Under the pieces are notes generated by a model. The model was not told the DNA's origin. It was given only the letters and a program-made list of their open reading frames with translations, and searched no databases. A DNA stretch of 64,000 bases from Gammaproteobacteria bacterium (lineage in GTDB: Bacteria > Pseudomonadota > Gammaproteobacteria > QZLD01), in the NCBI GenBank assembly GCA_033852135.1, contig JAWSVB010000016.1, positions 100,938 to 164,937 of the forward strand, written 5' to 3'. This document shows, one piece after another, positions 1 through 54,719 of this stretch (position 1 is its first letter; each line of letters starts with the position of its first letter). The translations under genes and the position numbers were made by a program.

Positions 1-74
1 TATTCAAGGTAATAGATATTAGCCCGCTTTGAATGCAGTATTGTTTTCAGGTCTGATGGTGATAGATCTTTCAT
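1..74 (-). CDS. cas1: Type I-F CRISPR-associated Cas1, N-terminal 24 codons (gene runs off the left edge)
   Basis: Manual translation from ATG at 74 gives MKDLSPSDLKTILHSKRANIYYLE, matching the characteristic I-F Cas1 N-terminus (SPSxLKTILHSKRANxYYL). AGGA RBS just upstream. Not in the ORF track. Confidence 0.88.
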   Translation of the reverse strand, partial: MKDLSPSDLKTILHSKRANIYYLE

Positions 75-91
75 TTTATTCCTGATTATTT

Positions 92-123
92 TGTTGGGCT
101 TCGCAAGCTCAGCACCAACCTAC
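92..123 (-). repeat. GTAG-type REP hairpin
   Basis: Minus strand GTAGGTTGGTGCTGAGCTTGCGAAGCCCAACA: GTAG tetranucleotide followed by an imperfect palindrome. Confidence 0.65.
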
Positions 124-156
124 TTTTTCTGGATACCGGCCTTCGCCGGTATGACG
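124..156 (-). repeat. CGTC-type REP hairpin, identical to 16063-16095
   Basis: TTTTTCTGGATACCGGCCTTCGCCGGTATGACG is an exact 33-bp match to the copy after ppsA; stem ATACCGGC/GCCGGTAT. Confidence 0.85.
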
Positions 157-164
157 TTTTCTTT

Positions 165-194
165 CTGGATTGCCTGATCAAATCTGGTAATGAT
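165..194 (-). repeat. Degenerate third REP-like unit
   Basis: CTGGATTGCCTGATCAAATCTGGTAATGAT has the same TGGAT...ATGA frame as the neighbouring REP and an imperfect stem. Confidence 0.5.
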
Positions 195-211
195 ATTTTT
201 ACCTTTAACCT

Positions 212-245
212 ATTTTACAAACCGGTTGTGTCAAAACCTGTCATA
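212..245 (-). promoter_or_regulatory. Candidate WYL operator and promoter for cas1
   Basis: Minus strand TATGACAGGTTTTGACAC-AACCGGTTTG-TAAAAT: TGACA-N5-TGACA pseudo-palindrome, then 10 nt, then a -10-like hexamer. Confidence 0.5.
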
Positions 246-246
246 G

Positions 247-1212
247 CTAATAATTTTTTAACGCCTTTCTTAATCTGTTTGTTACTTCTTCCTTTAGTGT
301 TTGTGGTTCCAGTACTTTTACATCTGCTCCGTATTTAAGTATGTCCATAACCAGCTCCATATCTTTTGAATATGGAAGTTGCAAGATATAGCTACCATCT
401 TTTTGCAGCTCCCCTTTTTGTTCCGGGTGCCACTGTTCGTCTATCACCCATCTTGCTCTTTCAGGTGTGAATTGCAGTTTTGCAATATTTTTTGCATCTC
501 CGGTGAATATGCCATATGAGCTGAGAACGTGTTTATCAAGCTGGTTTAAGCTAATTTTTTCAGCTTTGCTTTTTTGGATAGTTGCTTGCTGAATTTGGTC
601 TATGGAAAAGATTCTGAATTGTTCGCGTAAGTGGCATTTTGCCTCTAAGTACCAGTTGCTACGGTAATATGTCATTCTTTGCGGGGATACGGTTCTTGTA
701 TTTGTTTTGTTGCTACCTCTAGACAGGTATATGATATCTAGCTTCTTGCTCTGTACTAATGCGCTGGATACGTTTTTGAATATTTTTTCATCTACTCTTC
801 TACTGCCAATCTTTTCTATACGAAATTTATGATCTGCATCTTGTGGAGCAATTTTAGATAACTGTAAGATTGAGTCTATTTTTTTGTTAAGTGGTGATAT
901 TTGGTTTTCAAACAACCCTTTTTCTATGCTTTTAAGTTGTTGTTTAATTGTTAGTAGTGCGGATATCTCGGAAACGTTAAACCATATTCCAGGAAGCTCA
1001 AAACTGGTTTGCTGTTTTTTATTATAATAATAACCACCATTTTCTCTATCCGTTTCTATCGGGGCATCAAAGTAAAGCCGCAGTTCATCAACAACTCTTC
1101 TAACAGTTCTTTCAGAGCACTCGAGCTCCTGCTTCAACTTAGATGTTGATACTGAATAATTAGACAACTTTAGTATTTGGTGTAATGTATATATCCTTGA
1201 GAACTTATCCAT
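247..1212 (-). CDS. WYL-domain transcriptional regulator (HTH-WYL-WCX, YafY/PafC-like)
   Basis: wHTH (LECSERTVRRVVDELR), RTVSPQRM..NWYLEA..RIFSID WYL motif, WCX (ILKYGADVKVLEP). Start placed at ATG 1212 after a GGGGG RBS rather than 1251. Confidence 0.93.
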   Translation of the reverse strand: MDKFSRIYTLHQILKLSNYSVSTSKLKQELECSERTVRRVVDELRLYFDAPIETDRENGGYYYNKKQQTSFELPGIWFNVSEISALLTIKQQLKSIEKGLFENQISPLNKKIDSILQLSKIAPQDADHKFRIEKIGSRRVDEKIFKNVSSALVQSKKLDIIYLSRGSNKTNTRTVSPQRMTYYRSNWYLEAKCHLREQFRIFSIDQIQQATIQKSKAEKISLNQLDKHVLSSYGIFTGDAKNIAKLQFTPERARWVIDEQWHPEQKGELQKDGSYILQLPYSKDMELVMDILKYGADVKVLEPQTLKEEVTNRLRKALKNY

Positions 1213-1486
1213 GCTTTCACCCCCATAACAACCATTTGCTGATGATACCATATGGTTTTTACGCTGTAACTAAACCCCAAAATATTATTAGTATCCCTGA
1301 GTTTCCCTTTTATTAATGGGTGAATTACATATGGATTAAGGCAAGAAAAAATAGGTTATTTCACACATAAATGTAACTTCCAGGCTTTGTATTAATTATA
1401 TAATGAGTTAGTTCGACCGCTGTTATCTTTGCCCAAATTATTCTACTTAAAGTTAGTGGGCAGCAACATAAGGATAAAAAGTACTG

Positions 1487-2458
1487 CTACCAGGTACAGT
1501 CTGGATGATGGCTCTTAAGAAACTCTTTATAAGCAGGGACAGGGTATCCCATATGTGTGGCGCTGTATGGCAGCTTAATTGAAGATCCTGATCGATTAGA
1601 CATTTTATCTATCTTGGATATTTTTTTAATCGACTTTTCCACAGCAGCACGCGTTTTATATCCGAATACCCCATCGATTTTTCCTTTCAGGTATCCGTGC
1701 TTTTTTAAACAGGTCTGAATTGGAACTAAATATGTGTAAGAGTCACTGGCAATATTTGAGAACAGTTTATCTCGACTTACCCCGCTTATCCATTTTTTAT
1801 TGGCATATTTCTTAACAGCTAATTCTCCTCTTGCAGCCCAATTCCCCATAGCTCCACCGTATTTATGGAAAATGACCTGGTACCCCATAACCTCCAGTCT
1901 TTCTAAAGGTTCTCCCCAGATTTTCCGCTCCTCCCGGTCTATTTTCATCTGTGCTTCACGCGCAATTACCTCAGCTTTCTGTTTACGCCTCTCTTCGGTT
2001 TGCACAGCAGCTCTTTCCTGATTGACTTCATTAAATGGCCTTTGATGAACACCAAATAACATAAGTAACAGTCCAATAATCAATGGCCCAACTGTTATCA
2101 GGAATGTCCATGGTTTTCCTATATAGTGTGCGATAACATTAAAAACACTGGTGATAAAACAAAAAAACATAATCCAGTAAACCACTATTAAGCCTAAACA
2201 CAATTCTCCATTAACTGCAGAATAAATGTAATCTGTTGGGACCATTAATGGCACGCCGATGGCATAATTATAAATATTCAGAATTAATCTGAATGGCAGG
2301 ATATATAGATCCTGCTGTTCATGCATATCTCGTAAGGCATATGGAAAAGCAGCTACTACCAATATAATCCAAAGAAAGGTAAAGCCCTCACCGAGCTGTT
2401 TGGCAGGAACAGAAACTCCATTTACTGTAACGTTTATATTGTCTAATTTATTACTCAC
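1487..2458 (-). CDS. Hypothetical membrane protein with a C-terminal peptidoglycan-binding-like motif
   Basis: About 4 hydrophobic segments, a charged coiled segment, and IQTCLKKHGYLKGKIDGVFGYKTRAAV resembling PG_binding_1. Confidence 0.6.
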   Translation of the reverse strand: MSNKLDNINVTVNGVSVPAKQLGEGFTFLWIILVVAAFPYALRDMHEQQDLYILPFRLILNIYNYAIGVPLMVPTDYIYSAVNGELCLGLIVVYWIMFFCFITSVFNVIAHYIGKPWTFLITVGPLIIGLLLMLFGVHQRPFNEVNQERAAVQTEERRKQKAEVIAREAQMKIDREERKIWGEPLERLEVMGYQVIFHKYGGAMGNWAARGELAVKKYANKKWISGVSRDKLFSNIASDSYTYLVPIQTCLKKHGYLKGKIDGVFGYKTRAAVEKSIKKISKIDKMSNRSGSSIKLPYSATHMGYPVPAYKEFLKSHHPDCTW

Positions 2459-18874: not shown

Positions 18875-19705
18875 ATGACAAAATGTAAACGCACAGTTTT
18901 TTATGTTTCAGATGGAACCGGCATCACTGCTGAGACTTTAGGGCAAACGCTTCTTACTCAGTTTCCTGATTATGAATTTGAACAGGTTAATCTGCCATTT
19001 GTTAACACTACAGAAAAAGCAATTAATACGGTCCGAACTATTAATGAAAATGCCAAAAGTAACTGTGGCAAGCCATTTGTCTTTTGTACAATCATCTCTG
19101 ACCAATTAAGAGAGATATTAAAAGAGAGCGACTCTTTATATTTCGATTTTTTTGAGACTTTTGTAACCCCAATGGAACAAGAACTTGGTGCTAAATCAGC
19201 ACATACAGTTGGTAGATCCCATGGTATGTCTGATTCCAAAGTATATCTGGATAGAATGAATGCGGTAAATTATGCTGTAGATAACGATGATGGCATCACG
19301 ACCAGACATTATGGTAATGCGGATGTGATTATTATCGGAGTTTCTAGATCTGGCAAAACCCCAGTTAGTCTTTATTTAGCTCTGCAGTATGGAATAAGAG
19401 CTGCCAATTACCCTCTAACCGATGAAGACCTTGATAATACTATCCTCCCATCTTCGCTGGAGCCGTATCGCGACAAGATCTTTGGGCTAGTGATTGACCC
19501 AATCCGTTTACAAAAAATCAGGTTTGAGCGTAGACCTAATAGCCGCTATTCATCAATGCCACAGTGCAATTATGAAGTCGCAGCTATAAAGAAAATACTA
19601 AAGCGTGAGCGTGTCAATTTTGTAGATTCTACCGCTATGTCTATTGAAGAGATATCTGCAACAATTATTCAAAATGCTGACTTAAAAAAATCCATCAGAA
19701 AATAA
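18875..19705 (+). CDS. ppsR: PEP synthase regulatory kinase/pyrophosphorylase
   Basis: SDGTGITAE, GVSRSGKTP, ANYPL; divergent from ppsA. Confidence 0.96.
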   Translation: MTKCKRTVFYVSDGTGITAETLGQTLLTQFPDYEFEQVNLPFVNTTEKAINTVRTINENAKSNCGKPFVFCTIISDQLREILKESDSLYFDFFETFVTPMEQELGAKSAHTVGRSHGMSDSKVYLDRMNAVNYAVDNDDGITTRHYGNADVIIIGVSRSGKTPVSLYLALQYGIRAANYPLTDEDLDNTILPSSLEPYRDKIFGLVIDPIRLQKIRFERRPNSRYSSMPQCNYEVAAIKKILKRERVNFVDSTAMSIEEISATIIQNADLKKSIRK

Positions 19706-53879: not shown

Positions 53880-54719
53880 CTACTCACCTTTGGCTTTAAC
53901 ATAGATAGGGGCAAACTGCTCCTGTTGCACAATATCAATCAAAGATCCCTTAACTAACTCTAAAATAGCAAGAAAAGATACAACTACTCCCAACTTTCCC
54001 TCATCCAGAGTAAATAAAGATATGAACTCTACAAACTTATCATCTTCAATTTTAGCTAAAACTTGTGTCATCCTCTCCCTAACAGACAGAGTTTCACGCT
54101 GTATCTGGTGATTAGTAAATAGATCTGCACGAGCAACAACTTCCATCATAGCCGATAGCAGCTCCTTAATATCAACATCTGGAAGCAACTTCTCAGCTTT
54201 AAAGTGCTCTGTATCAAGATTAATAGGAACAATATCCCTATCAACACGAGGTAGTTGATCTAAATCTTCAGCAGCTCCTTTATATCTTTCATACTCCTGC
54301 AAGCGCCTTATCAATTCAGCCCTTGGATCCTCTTCATCTTCGATCTCAGCAGGTCTTGGCAGAAGCATTCTTGACTTAATTTCAGCAAGCATTGCTGCCA
54401 TAACTAAATATTCACCAGCCAATTCAAGACGCATATCATCCATAAGATCAATATATTGCATATATTGACCAGTAATTGGTGCAATAGGAATATCAATGAT
54501 ATCTAGATTTTGGCGTTTTATAAGGTAGAGCAATAGATCAAGAGGCCCTTCAAAGGCCTCTAAAAATACTTCAAGAGCATCAGGTGGGATATAAAGATCA
54601 CTTGGAAGCTGAGTTACCGCCTCGCCACGAACAACAGCAAACGGCATCTCTTCCTGTATCAGCGCCTGCTGTGATGGTGAGTTTAGTAAATCTTCTGTTA
54701 CTCCAGCAGTTTCAGTCAT
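53880..54719 (-). CDS. scpA: Segregation and condensation protein A
   Basis: FEGPLDLLLYLI, EIKSRMLLP, FLAILEL. Confidence 0.96.
   Translation of the reverse strand: MTETAGVTEDLLNSPSQQALIQEEMPFAVVRGEAVTQLPSDLYIPPDALEVFLEAFEGPLDLLLYLIKRQNLDIIDIPIAPITGQYMQYIDLMDDMRLELAGEYLVMAAMLAEIKSRMLLPRPAEIEDEEDPRAELIRRLQEYERYKGAAEDLDQLPRVDRDIVPINLDTEHFKAEKLLPDVDIKELLSAMMEVVARADLFTNHQIQRETLSVRERMTQVLAKIEDDKFVEFISLFTLDEGKLGVVVSFLAILELVKGSLIDIVQQEQFAPIYVKAKGE

What the first reader, a model, noticed from the sequence alone, without database searches (positions are those of the whole stretch)
212..245. PafBC-style promoter geometry in front of cas1
Seen: TATGACA-GGTTT-TGACAC followed by exactly 10 nt and TAAAAT, starting right after the WYL stop; the spacing from TTGACA to the -10 is far too short for a normal sigma70 promoter. 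Known: mycobacterial PafBC activates promoters of the form TGTCGG-N10-TANNNT by sigma adaptation. Inference: this WYL protein is an activator that switches on CRISPR-Cas by the same mechanism in a Gammaproteobacterium.
Basis: partly seen in the sequence, partly recalled or inferred. Interest (0 to 1): 0.75.

Follow-up and report, generated by a model that had tools for sequence, protein, structure and literature searches.

The report
WYL-activated promoter before CRISPR cas1
A regulator gene next to a CRISPR immune system is followed by its own binding site, placed at a fixed distance from a promoter that lacks the usual upstream signal, so it probably switches the CRISPR genes on; this is a new example of a known kind of switch.

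Summary
On the minus strand, 3 nt after the stop of an HTH-WYL-WCX gene, lies TGACA-GGTTT-TGACA (window 243-229), then 11 nt, then TAAAAT (217-212). No -35 sits at usable spacing. Type I-F cas1 starts at 74. The composite motif occurs once in the 3.15 Mb genome.

The geometry is conserved. Among homologues of the regulator, 33 of 42 distinct boxes carry an nAnnnT hexamer 11 or 12 nt downstream. Among 17 loci with the regulator directly upstream of I-F cas1, 10 meet strict criteria, against 0.43 expected from shuffles. Box type varies together with the recognition helix.

The GWC-to-(-10) distance of 12 nt equals that of PafBC's -26 element. However, there are two half-sites (a perfect palindrome in the sister genome), one regulator gene, a predicted homodimer, and DriD as the best structural match. 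The likely mechanism is therefore DriD-like recruitment of RNA polymerase by a probably ssDNA-sensing activator, not PafBC's sigma adaptation proper.

Activation, the start site and the ligand are inferred, not shown.

A WYL activator of type I-F CRISPR-Cas (DdaA, acting in trans in Acinetobacter) was published in 2025. I rate this a new member of a known kind, of moderate interest.

The parts
247..1212 (-). Regulator gene, HTH_11 + three-helix linker + WYL + WCX (321 aa from ATG 1212-1210; stop 249-247). The ORF list gives 247-1251, but homologues start at the second Met (MDKFSRIY).
   Evidence: WYL 7e-19, WCX 2.5e-17, HTH_11 2.8e-9; PADLOC CRISPR-associated WYL 2.3e-41; alignment of 15 homologues; AF2 pLDDT 82; best PDB fold DriD 8tp8, E 4.5e-18, TM 0.6
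1242..1270 (-). Candidate ordinary sigma-70 promoter of the regulator gene (GTTACA, 17 nt, TATCAT with TG before it). It lies inside the longer ORF, which also argues for the start at 1212.
   Evidence: consensus match only; 5 sites found in 1-1600 against 5.7 expected, so weak by itself
229..243 (-). 15-bp box TGACA-GGTTT-TGACA: two half-sites of form xGWCA / TGWCx, the predicted binding site of the regulator dimer. It would span about -38 to -24.
   Evidence: unique composite; TGTGTCA-GAAAA-TGACACA in the sister genome; box type goes with recognition helix; DriD Arg37/Arg41 read G2 and C4 of the same 15-bp frame
218..228 (-). 11-nt spacer between box and -10 hexamer (CAACCGGTTTG).
   Evidence: spacing of 11 or 12 nt recurs across the family
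212..217 (-). -10 hexamer TAAAAT. No -35: the position 17 nt upstream reads CAGGTT.
   Evidence: family matrix (consensus T/G-A-T-A-A-T; -35 position reads CA-S-N-T-T)
204..206 (-). Predicted transcription start (about 7 nt after the -10). Inferred, not observed.
   Evidence: Inference from promoter geometry; no RNA run holds the stretch
125..160 (-). REP-like palindromic element 1 (stem ATACCGGC/GCCGGTAT) inside the predicted 131-nt leader. About 33 other copies in the genome; absent from the sister genome's intergenic region.
   Evidence: Terminator-like only when read on the + strand; on the cas1 strand no T-run follows
90..124 (-). REP-like element 2 (second hairpin), about 6 other copies.
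1..74 (-). First 24 codons of type I-F cas1. The rest of the locus (cas2-3, csy1-4, CRISPR array) lies outside the window.

Best explanation
The 321-aa HTH-WYL-WCX protein is a locus-encoded, homodimeric transcription activator of the type I-F cas operon. Its two winged HTH domains bind the 15-bp box TGACA-N5-TGACA, which sits where a -35 element would be (about -38 to -24). From there the dimer helps sigma-70 RNA polymerase use the TAAAAT -10 hexamer 11 nt downstream, starting transcription near window 205. The resulting cas1 mRNA has a leader of about 131 nt holding two REP-like hairpins.

By analogy with DriD, PafBC, SiwR and DdaA, the WYL domain probably senses single-stranded DNA made during DNA damage or phage attack. 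The mode of action is DriD-like, with both HTHs on DNA and fixed box-to-(-10) geometry. The proximal half-site lies in exactly the register of PafBC's -26 element.

Shown here: the sequence anatomy, its uniqueness in the genome, the conservation of the geometry across the family, and the relatedness to known activators. Inferred: binding, activation rather than repression, the start site and the ligand. With no terminator between the regulator's stop and the box, some read-through from the regulator's own promoter is also likely.
For: 1. Anatomy and uniqueness. No sigma-70-type site in 1-246 on the minus strand.

2. Sister genome G001 (regulator 74% identical, Cas1 88%): TGTGTCA-GAAAA-TGACACA, then 11 nt after TGACA, then TAGGAT. 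The best local alignment of the two intergenic regions puts the two modules at non-homologous positions. The window's spacer and -10 align with G001 sequence that lies upstream of G001's box, and the G001 box position in the window is degenerate and followed by REP insertions. The architecture was therefore kept or re-made, not merely inherited.

3. Family level.
- In 101 loci, 37 strict boxes were found in 35 loci.
- Of 28 boxes downstream of the regulator's stop, nAnnnT starts at offset 11 in 13 and at offset 12 in 8. All other offsets from 0 to 29 have 0-6, and the opposite direction shows no peak.
- Of 8 boxes upstream of the regulator gene, 7 show the same offsets.
- With 125 loci, 33 of 42 distinct boxes have offset 11 (21 boxes) or 12 (12 boxes).
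- In the matrix aligned on the -10, the -35 position reads CA-S-N-T-T, not TTGACA.

4. I-F-linked loci: 10 of 17 meet the strict criteria. Shuffles give a mean of 0.43 and a maximum of 3 in 1000; the reverse-strand control gives 3.

5. Box and protein vary together. Boxes with G at position 2 go with Arg at helix position x2 or x4 in 8 of 10 cases; boxes with C go with Arg in 0 of 27. In DriD the equivalent Arg37 and Arg41 read G2 and the G paired with C4 of the same 15-bp frame (PMC10853764). The window protein reads S-E-R-T-V-R-R, with Arg at both equivalents.

6. Kinship with activators. The family profile matches PafBC at 1e-31, PafC at 6.5e-22, DriD over the full length at 4e-17 and PafB at 1e-13. 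BrxR (4e-12) and CapW (4e-11) match over the WYL domain only. Foldseek gives DriD E 4.5e-18 with TM 0.6, PafBC 3.5e-15, and CapW/BrxR about 1e-10 with TM 0.33-0.41.

7. Seven of ten DriD ssDNA-contact residues have identical or aromatic equivalents: Y168, R178, R189, Y192, R204, W206 to F, and Y240 to F. This is my mapping.

8. Homodimer model: score 0.63, best of 3 controls 0.00. That mark was reached by 20 of 30 solved homomers and 1 of 23 solved single chains. The runs agree in at least 70% of contacts and pLDDT is at least 73. Solved DriD, BrxR and CapW dimers exist, so the pass may reflect likeness only.

9. Precedent: DdaA, box CGWCA-N5-TGWCG, activates the native I-F system of A. baumannii (PMC12392091, Results and Discussion read).
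Against: - No experiment or RNA data bear on this locus. No RNA run is listed (see Tried and rejected).
- By the strict criteria, 87 of 125 family loci show no box within about 220 nt of the gene (some flanks are cut by contig ends). Seven of the 17 I-F-linked loci fail them; two of these (G238, G385) show nothing recognisable even by eye.
- The window's distal half-site is a direct, not inverted, copy. It fits only because the centre of each half-site is W.
- The covariation cannot be tested once phylogeny is allowed for. There are only 2 independent pairs on supported branches and 4 on all branches.
- WYL regulators characterised next to defence systems (BrxR, CapW) are repressors (stated in PMC12392091 Discussion). 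A box over the -35 region could also occlude polymerase.
- The DdaA authors place their box about 50 bp upstream of start sites and doubt sigma adaptation. That differs from the predicted centre near -31 here.
- DriD's exact box-to-(-10) distance could not be read because the figure is not held. From the oligonucleotides printed in PMC13004042 it is either 9 or 11 nt.
- The loci are related, so the counts overstate independence.
Confidence: 0.6

Rival explanations
1. Repressor. The WYL protein binds the box and occludes the cas1 promoter, as BrxR, CapW and (recalled) Synechocystis sll7009 do for their defence systems. A nucleic-acid signal releases it.
For: The box overlaps the core promoter. 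The characterised defence-linked WYL regulators BrxR and CapW are repressors (PMC12392091 Discussion; PMC13004042 Introduction). PADLOC files the protein under CRISPR-associated WYL signalling proteins.
Against: There is no -35 at 16-18 nt in the window, in G001 or in the family matrix, so there is little for a repressor to switch off. A spacing fixed to 11-12 nt across boxes of different sequence is typical of contact with polymerase. Unlike auto-repressed BrxR or CapW operons, no box lies upstream of the regulator's own gene here or in G001. Sequence and fold are closer to DriD and PafBC than to BrxR and CapW.
Confidence: 0.15
2. True PafBC-type sigma adaptation. Only the proximal half-site (TGACAC, about -28 to -23) is read by one HTH. 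The second HTH inserts against sigma region 4 rather than binding DNA.
For: The register is identical to tGTCgg(N10)tA(N3)T. The best sequence matches in the PDB are PafBC and PafC. In some I-F-linked loci the proximal half-site is better kept than the distal one (G176, G225). SiwR, a homodimer, also depends on a -26 region (PMC10693628, passages).
Against: There is one regulator gene at the locus; the genome's only other WYL gene is about 24 kb away. The distal half-site is present, and the box is a perfect palindrome in G001 and in many family loci. DriD is the best structural match. In DriD complexes both HTHs bind DNA and sigma-4 docks on the opposite face.
Confidence: 0.1
3. The site is not a working promoter. 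cas1 is transcribed by read-through from the regulator's own promoter, and the motif is a chance or decayed feature.
For: No terminator lies between the regulator's stop and cas1 on the minus strand. The simple motif is not enriched genome-wide. 6 of 100 shuffles give a TGNCA-N5-TGACAC match.
Against: The box-plus-spacing-plus-(-10) module is conserved in 10 of 17 I-F-linked loci against 0.43 expected and in 33 of 42 family boxes. In G001 it sits at a non-homologous position.
Confidence: 0.05

Closest known systems
DriD of Caulobacter crescentus (homodimeric WYL activator; PMC13004042, PMC10853764)
   Same: HTH, three-helix bundle, WYL and WCX architecture; best fold match. 15-bp two-half-site box with G2 and C4 as key bases and a T/A-rich centre. 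The box overlaps the position of a missing -35 at one fixed distance from the -10. Arg at both base-reading positions of the recognition helix, and 7 of 10 ssDNA contacts kept.
   Different: About 20% identity. Box TGWCA-N5-TGWCA rather than CGAC-N7-GTCG. One local target (the cas operon) rather than a DNA-damage regulon. Gammaproteobacterial sigma-70. DriD's exact spacing (9 or 11 nt) could not be verified from the text held.
PafBC of mycobacteria (sigma adaptation; PMC8635444)
   Same: -35-less promoter; GWC triplet 12 nt before the TAnnnT hexamer, the same register as tGTCgg(N10)tA(N3)T. Best sequence match in the PDB.
   Different: PafBC is a heterodimer of two paralogues, binds a single non-palindromic element, does not bind promoter DNA without polymerase, and controls about 150 genes.
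DdaA of Moraxellaceae (PMC12392091)
   Same: Gammaproteobacterial WYL activator. The box CGWCA-N5-TGWCG has the same inner GWCA/TGWC frame. It activates type I-F CRISPR-Cas and responds to DNA damage. The authors note that, before DdaA became global, homologues seemed to regulate genes next to their own gene.
   Different: DdaA acts in trans as a global regulator that replaced LexA. It has Ala at the first ssDNA-binding Arg, where this family has an invariant Arg. The authors place its box about 50 bp upstream of start sites. No DdaA sequence was available here for a direct comparison.
SiwR of Mycobacterium smegmatis (PMC10693628)
   Same: Homodimeric WYL activator dedicated to the adjacent operon, with an imperfect palindrome between -35 and -10, an essential -26 region, and ssDNA sensing.
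   Different: Actinobacterial; divergent gene arrangement; 19-bp palindrome; its targets are DinB-like genes.
BrxR and CapW (WYL repressors of BREX and CBASS)
   Same: Defence-linked HTH-WYL-WCX dimers.
   Different: They are repressors. Only the WYL domain matches the family profile, and the fold match is weaker (TM 0.33-0.41). They are described as acting on their own operon's promoter (recalled), whereas no box lies upstream of the regulator gene here.

Membership tests
PafBC-type sigma-adaptation promoter and regulator | Upstream element in the register tGTCgg(N10)tA(N3)T (-23 to -28), with no -35 | tested here: met
   TGACAC-N10-TAAAAT at 233-212; no -35
PafBC-type sigma-adaptation promoter and regulator | Heterodimer of two paralogous WYL proteins (PafB and PafC, adjacent or fused) | tested here: not met
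   One WYL gene at the locus. The genome's only other WYL gene is about 24 kb away and not paired with it. A homodimer is predicted.
PafBC-type sigma-adaptation promoter and regulator | Single, non-palindromic DNA element read by one HTH only | tested here: not met
   A second half-site lies 5 nt upstream. The box is a perfect 7-5-7 palindrome in G001 and palindromic in many family loci.
PafBC-type sigma-adaptation promoter and regulator | Second HTH contacts sigma region 4 | not testable with these tools
   Needs a structure or crosslinking of the polymerase complex
DriD-type homodimeric WYL activator | wHTH, three-helix bundle, WYL and WCX architecture; dimer through WCX | tested here: met
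   Pfam; AF2 model with helices 80-129 between HTH and WYL; DriD is the top fold hit. Homodimer model 0.63 against control 0.00, interface at 289-321, possibly from likeness to solved dimers.
DriD-type homodimeric WYL activator | 15-bp box with two half-sites, G2 and C4 read by two Arg of the recognition helix | tested here: met
   Box TGACA-N5-TGACA; helix S-E-R-T-V-R-R with Arg at the Arg37 and Arg41 equivalents. Binding itself was not tested.
DriD-type homodimeric WYL activator | Box over the position of a missing -35, at one fixed distance from the -10 | tested here: met
   Offset 11 or 12 in 33 of 42 boxes; 21 of 28 downstream boxes; 10 of 17 I-F-linked loci
DriD-type homodimeric WYL activator | ssDNA bound by the WYL domain switches on DNA binding and activation | tested here: inconclusive
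   7 of 10 DriD contact residues conserved; R207, S172 and R288 equivalents are not.
DdaA (Moraxellaceae) | Box CGWCA-N5-TGWCG | tested here: inconclusive
   The inner GWCA/TGWC and N5 match; the outer C and G are T and A.
DdaA (Moraxellaceae) | First of the two ssDNA-binding Arg (beta4) replaced by Ala | tested here: not met
   The equivalent Arg (R173 in A3 numbering) is invariant in 15 of 15 aligned homologues (the mapping is mine).
DdaA (Moraxellaceae) | Global regulon including recA and other repair genes | tested here: not met
   The exact composite is unique. A scan allowing 1 mismatch gave 47 hits, 3 of them exact. Of the other two exact hits, one lies antisense inside an ORF; the second lies in a stretch where my ORF scan, which cannot list ORFs running off the excerpt, showed none, and I did not resolve it. 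The 44 one-mismatch hits were not inspected one by one.
BrxR/CapW-type repressors | Operator at the promoter of the regulator's own operon (auto-repression) | tested here: not met
   No box in the 260 nt upstream of the regulator gene in the window or G001. In 8 other family loci a box does lie upstream, but with the activator-type offset in 7 of 8.

The most novel reading that the evidence does not exclude
The inducer is the single-stranded DNA that the system itself makes. Cas2-3 unwinding and degradation of a target (or RecBCD processing of phage DNA) releases ssDNA. That ssDNA loads the locus-encoded WYL dimer, which then boosts cas1, cas2-3 and csy transcription. This would be a self-amplifying loop coupling interference to primed adaptation. 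The same box-plus-11/12-nt rule would mark a widespread class of cis-encoded ssDNA-triggered activators. They stand in front of type I cas operons (cas1-first and cas3-first), HIRAN genes and rmuC, across about a fifth of sampled Gammaproteobacteria.
Probability: 0.15. Interest if true: 0.75.

Novelty: new member of a known kind. Interest (0 to 1): 0.45.

Why it matters
How CRISPR-Cas expression is tied to infection is known for only a few systems.

In this sample a WYL regulator gene stood directly upstream of type I-F cas1 in 16 of the 36 loci examined, out of 41 genomes with such a Cas1 among 400 sampled. The regulator family itself is present in 89 of 400 genomes of the class.

A simple, checkable promoter rule emerges: a 15-bp box, then 11-12 nt, then a -10 hexamer, with no -35. 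It would allow targets of these regulators to be predicted from sequence. It would also extend the DriD/PafBC type of -35-less activation to sigma-70 of Gammaproteobacteria. Finally, it links adaptive immunity to a DNA-damage or ssDNA signal through a dedicated local switch, rather than a global one like DdaA.

Tried and rejected
- Close-relative scan of metagenome contigs with the two-sequence alignment: none found. The wider alignment gave 80 loci, all 39-47% identical. No intermediate orthologues exist for fine footprinting; genome contigs gave only G001.
- RNA evidence: no RNA holder is listed. The three runs holding the stretch are DNA runs of one plastisphere metagenome study.
- Earlier findings of this scan: nothing near this place.
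- Rfam on window 1-1600: no match at E up to 1.
- Terminator reading of the box: rejected. In the window the half-sites are direct copies, and no T-run follows in either genome. The only terminator-like site (133-152) is the REP hairpin read on the + strand.
- A second, ordinary promoter closer to cas1: none by the scan or by eye.
- A regulon search in the own genome found nothing convincing beyond cas1.
- A tree-based test of helix/box covariation has too few independent pairs.
- MAFFT's global alignment of the two intergenic regions hid the shared module. Local alignment showed why.
- I first miscounted the Arg positions in the helix table. This was corrected.
- Direct comparison with a DdaA sequence was not possible, because none is held under a name here. 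Supplementary tables of the DdaA and DriD papers (motif positions, start sites) could not be seen and may bear on the -50 versus -31 question.
- Literature: four searches found no paper describing a cis-encoded WYL activator promoter in front of cas1 or cas3. Subscription journals are not covered.

Full report
**What is there**

The window is G000:C27:100938-164937 of a 3.15 Mb, 39% G+C genome. On the minus strand an ORF at 247-1251 encodes an HTH_11, WYL and WCX protein. Homologues begin at its second Met, so the gene is 1212-247, 321 aa. A consensus-type sigma-70 site (GTTACA, 17 nt, TATCAT) lies at 1270-1242.

Three nucleotides after the stop (249-247) comes TGACA (243-239), GGTTT, TGACA (233-229), then 11 nt (228-218), then TAAAAT (217-212). 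cas1 starts at 74. Outside the window it is followed by cas2-3, csy1-4 and a CRISPR array with 28-nt type I-F repeats. I estimate about 80 units from span over period.

**Chance**

- TGACAC-N10-TANNNT occurs 3 times in the window against 0.44 expected. The two other copies lie inside ORFs without an upstream half-site. There are only 12 copies genome-wide.
- The two-box part occurs once against 0.06 expected; 6 of 100 shuffles have one.
- The composite is unique in the genome.

Alone, the site is suggestive only.

**Leader**

Between the predicted start (about 205) and the ATG lie two REP-like palindromic elements. One spans about 160-125 with some 33 other copies. The other spans about 124-90 with some 6 other copies. 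They fold as hairpins. On the cas1 strand no T-run follows them. The terminator-like call at 133-152 is for the + strand. Rfam finds nothing.

**Orthologues**

Only one close relative exists in the collections searched: G001, a MAG labelled Gammaproteobacteria bacterium (regulator 74% identical, Cas1 88%). Its intergenic region is 105 nt, lacks the REP elements, and holds TGTGTCA-GAAAA-TGACACA. After TGACA come 11 nt and then TAGGAT.

Local alignment shows that the shared backbone of the two intergenic regions places the window's spacer and -10 against G001 sequence upstream of G001's box. G001's box aligns with a degenerate stretch in the window (about 181-167) that is followed by the REP insertions. 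The module therefore sits at different places on a common backbone. This argues for selection on the architecture rather than simple inheritance. That last step is my inference.

**The wider family**

Homologues of 30-47% identity are common: 21 of 61 relatives at E up to 1e-20 and 89 of 400 genomes of the class at E up to 1e-60.

Many carry a palindromic box next to the gene, mostly GGCTCA-N5-TGAGCC and sometimes GGTCA-N5-TGACx.

Offsets between box and hexamer:
- In 101 loci, 37 strict boxes were found in 35 loci.
- For 28 boxes downstream of the stop, an nAnnnT hexamer starts 11 nt (13 boxes) or 12 nt (8 boxes) after the box. No other offset from 0 to 29 exceeds 6, and the opposite direction shows no peak.
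- Of 8 boxes upstream of the gene, 7 show the same offsets, pointing into the regulator gene.
- With 125 loci, plus three relaxed boxes that I added by hand from I-F-linked loci, 33 of 42 distinct boxes have offset 11 (21) or 12 (12).
- The aligned hexamer consensus is T/G-A-T-A-A-T. The -35 position reads CA-S-N-T-T.

Against this, 87 of 125 loci had no strict box within about 220 nt, and the loci are related.

The first ORF after the box (26 scanned, some probably spurious) is Cas3_HD in 6, HIRAN in 5, Cas1 in 3, RmuC in 1 and AbiEii in 1.

**I-F-linked loci**

41 of 400 genomes have an I-F-type Cas1 at E up to 1e-60. I examined 36 of them; the five with Cas1 below 50% identity were left out. 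Of the 36, 16 have a WYL homologue directly upstream on the same strand.

For 17 such loci (15 genomes, one metagenome contig, and one locus seen both in a genome and a metagenome), 10 meet the strict test. Shuffles give a mean of 0.43 and a maximum of 3 in 1000; the reverse-strand control gives 3.

Examples:
- TGTCA-GGATC-TGACA, 11 nt, TAAAAT (G327)
- CGACA-GGTTT-TGTCA, 11 nt, TAGGAT (G354)
- CCACA-TTATA-TGAGG, 11 nt, TAAAAT (L071)

By eye, five of the seven failures are partial and two (G238, G385) show nothing.

**Box and protein vary together**

Boxes with G at position 2 go with Arg at helix position x2 or x4 in 8 of 10 cases. Boxes with C do so in 0 of 27. The tree needs at least 4 changes of box type but offers only 2 to 4 independent pairs, so no test is possible.

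In the DriD-DNA structure, Arg37 reads G2 and Arg41 reads the G paired with C4 of the same 15-bp frame (PMC10853764, passages). By the profile alignment the window protein has Arg at both equivalents.

**Which kind of WYL regulator**

| Known protein | Family profile, | Foldseek on AF2 model (pLDDT 82), |
|---|---|---|
| PafBC | 1e-31 | 3.5e-15 |
| PafC | 6.5e-22 | not noted |
| DriD | 4e-17, full length | 4.5e-18, TM 0.6 (top hit) |
| PafB | 1e-13 | not noted |
| BrxR | 4e-12, WYL domain only | about 1e-10, TM 0.33-0.41 |
| CapW | 4e-11, WYL domain only | about 1e-10, TM 0.33-0.41 |

Seven of ten DriD ssDNA contacts are kept (my mapping). The homodimer model scores 0.63 against a best control of 0.00. 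That mark was reached by 20 of 30 solved homomers and 1 of 23 single chains. The runs agree in at least 70% of contacts and pLDDT is at least 73. Like dimers are solved, so this shows likeness only. The genome has one other WYL gene, about 24 kb away.

**Comparison with the literature**

- PafBC: consensus tGTCgg(N10)tA(N3)T, element at -23 to -28, one HTH on DNA and the other on sigma-4 (PMC8635444, passages).
- DriD: a homodimer. [quoted passage not shown] From the printed oligonucleotides its spacing is 9 or 11 nt; the figure is not held.
- SiwR: a homodimeric local activator with an essential -26 region (PMC10693628, passages).
- DdaA: box CGWCA-N5-TGWCG. It activates DNA-repair genes, restriction-modification and the native I-F system of A. 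baumannii. The authors place the box about 50 bp from start sites (PMC12392091, Results and Discussion read).
- A 2026 paper notes WYL or HTH genes near cas1 of I-F systems without analysing them (PMC12887000, passages).

**Verdict**

The activator reading is the best supported, at about 0.6. The mechanism is more likely DriD-like than PafBC's sigma adaptation. Binding, activation, start site and ligand are untested.

One row of alignment A3 and of the counts (L014) comes from a genome flagged unpublished (G043). No claim depends on it alone.

Noticed in passing
window 90-160: Two REP-like palindromic elements (about 33 and 6 other copies in the genome) sit inside the predicted cas1 leader and are absent from the sister genome. 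Their effect on cas mRNA (stability, processing, pausing) is unknown.
   Followed up: partly
L137:1186-2151 (-) = G000:C27 about 77.0-78.0 kb, outside the window: A second HTH-WYL-type regulator gene (321 aa), the only other WYL hit in the genome. It lies beside a 237-aa ORF and a 165-aa ORF, neither of which I scanned against family libraries. No defence system was identified next to it.
   Followed up: no
L088:3544-3936 and L164 (G282); also L033, L050, L051, L080: Small HIRAN-domain genes with a signal-peptide-like N-terminus are the first gene after the box in 5 of 26 loci. In L088/G282 the HIRAN gene sits between the regulator and I-F cas1.
   Followed up: partly
L144 (G321:C89), 56 nt upstream of cas1: A GCTCA-CCTCG-TGAGC box, 11 nt, then TAGTAT stands in front of I-F cas1 with no WYL gene in the 1.5 kb upstream. 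The genome's homologue is on another contig, which suggests regulation in trans as for DdaA.
   Followed up: partly
L115 (G171), between the regulator and cas1: A short stretch matching the C-terminus of Cas1 (45% identity) lies between the box and the full cas1 about 570 nt away. It looks like a remnant of a rearranged cas1.
   Followed up: no
P0001 against PADLOC model PDLC01766 (Cas3c): The whole regulator aligns to the first 316 of 1009 positions of a Cas3 model (E 7e-19). Cas3 proteins fused to this kind of WYL regulator therefore appear to exist.
   Followed up: no
window 19595-19616 and 54049-54070 (-): Two further TGACAC-N10-TANNNT matches, both inside ORFs and without an upstream half-site. 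Taken as chance.
   Followed up: yes
L009:3258-8147 (G000:C27, outside the window): A long type I-F CRISPR array of roughly 80 repeat-spacer units (my estimate from span and 60-nt period).
   Followed up: no
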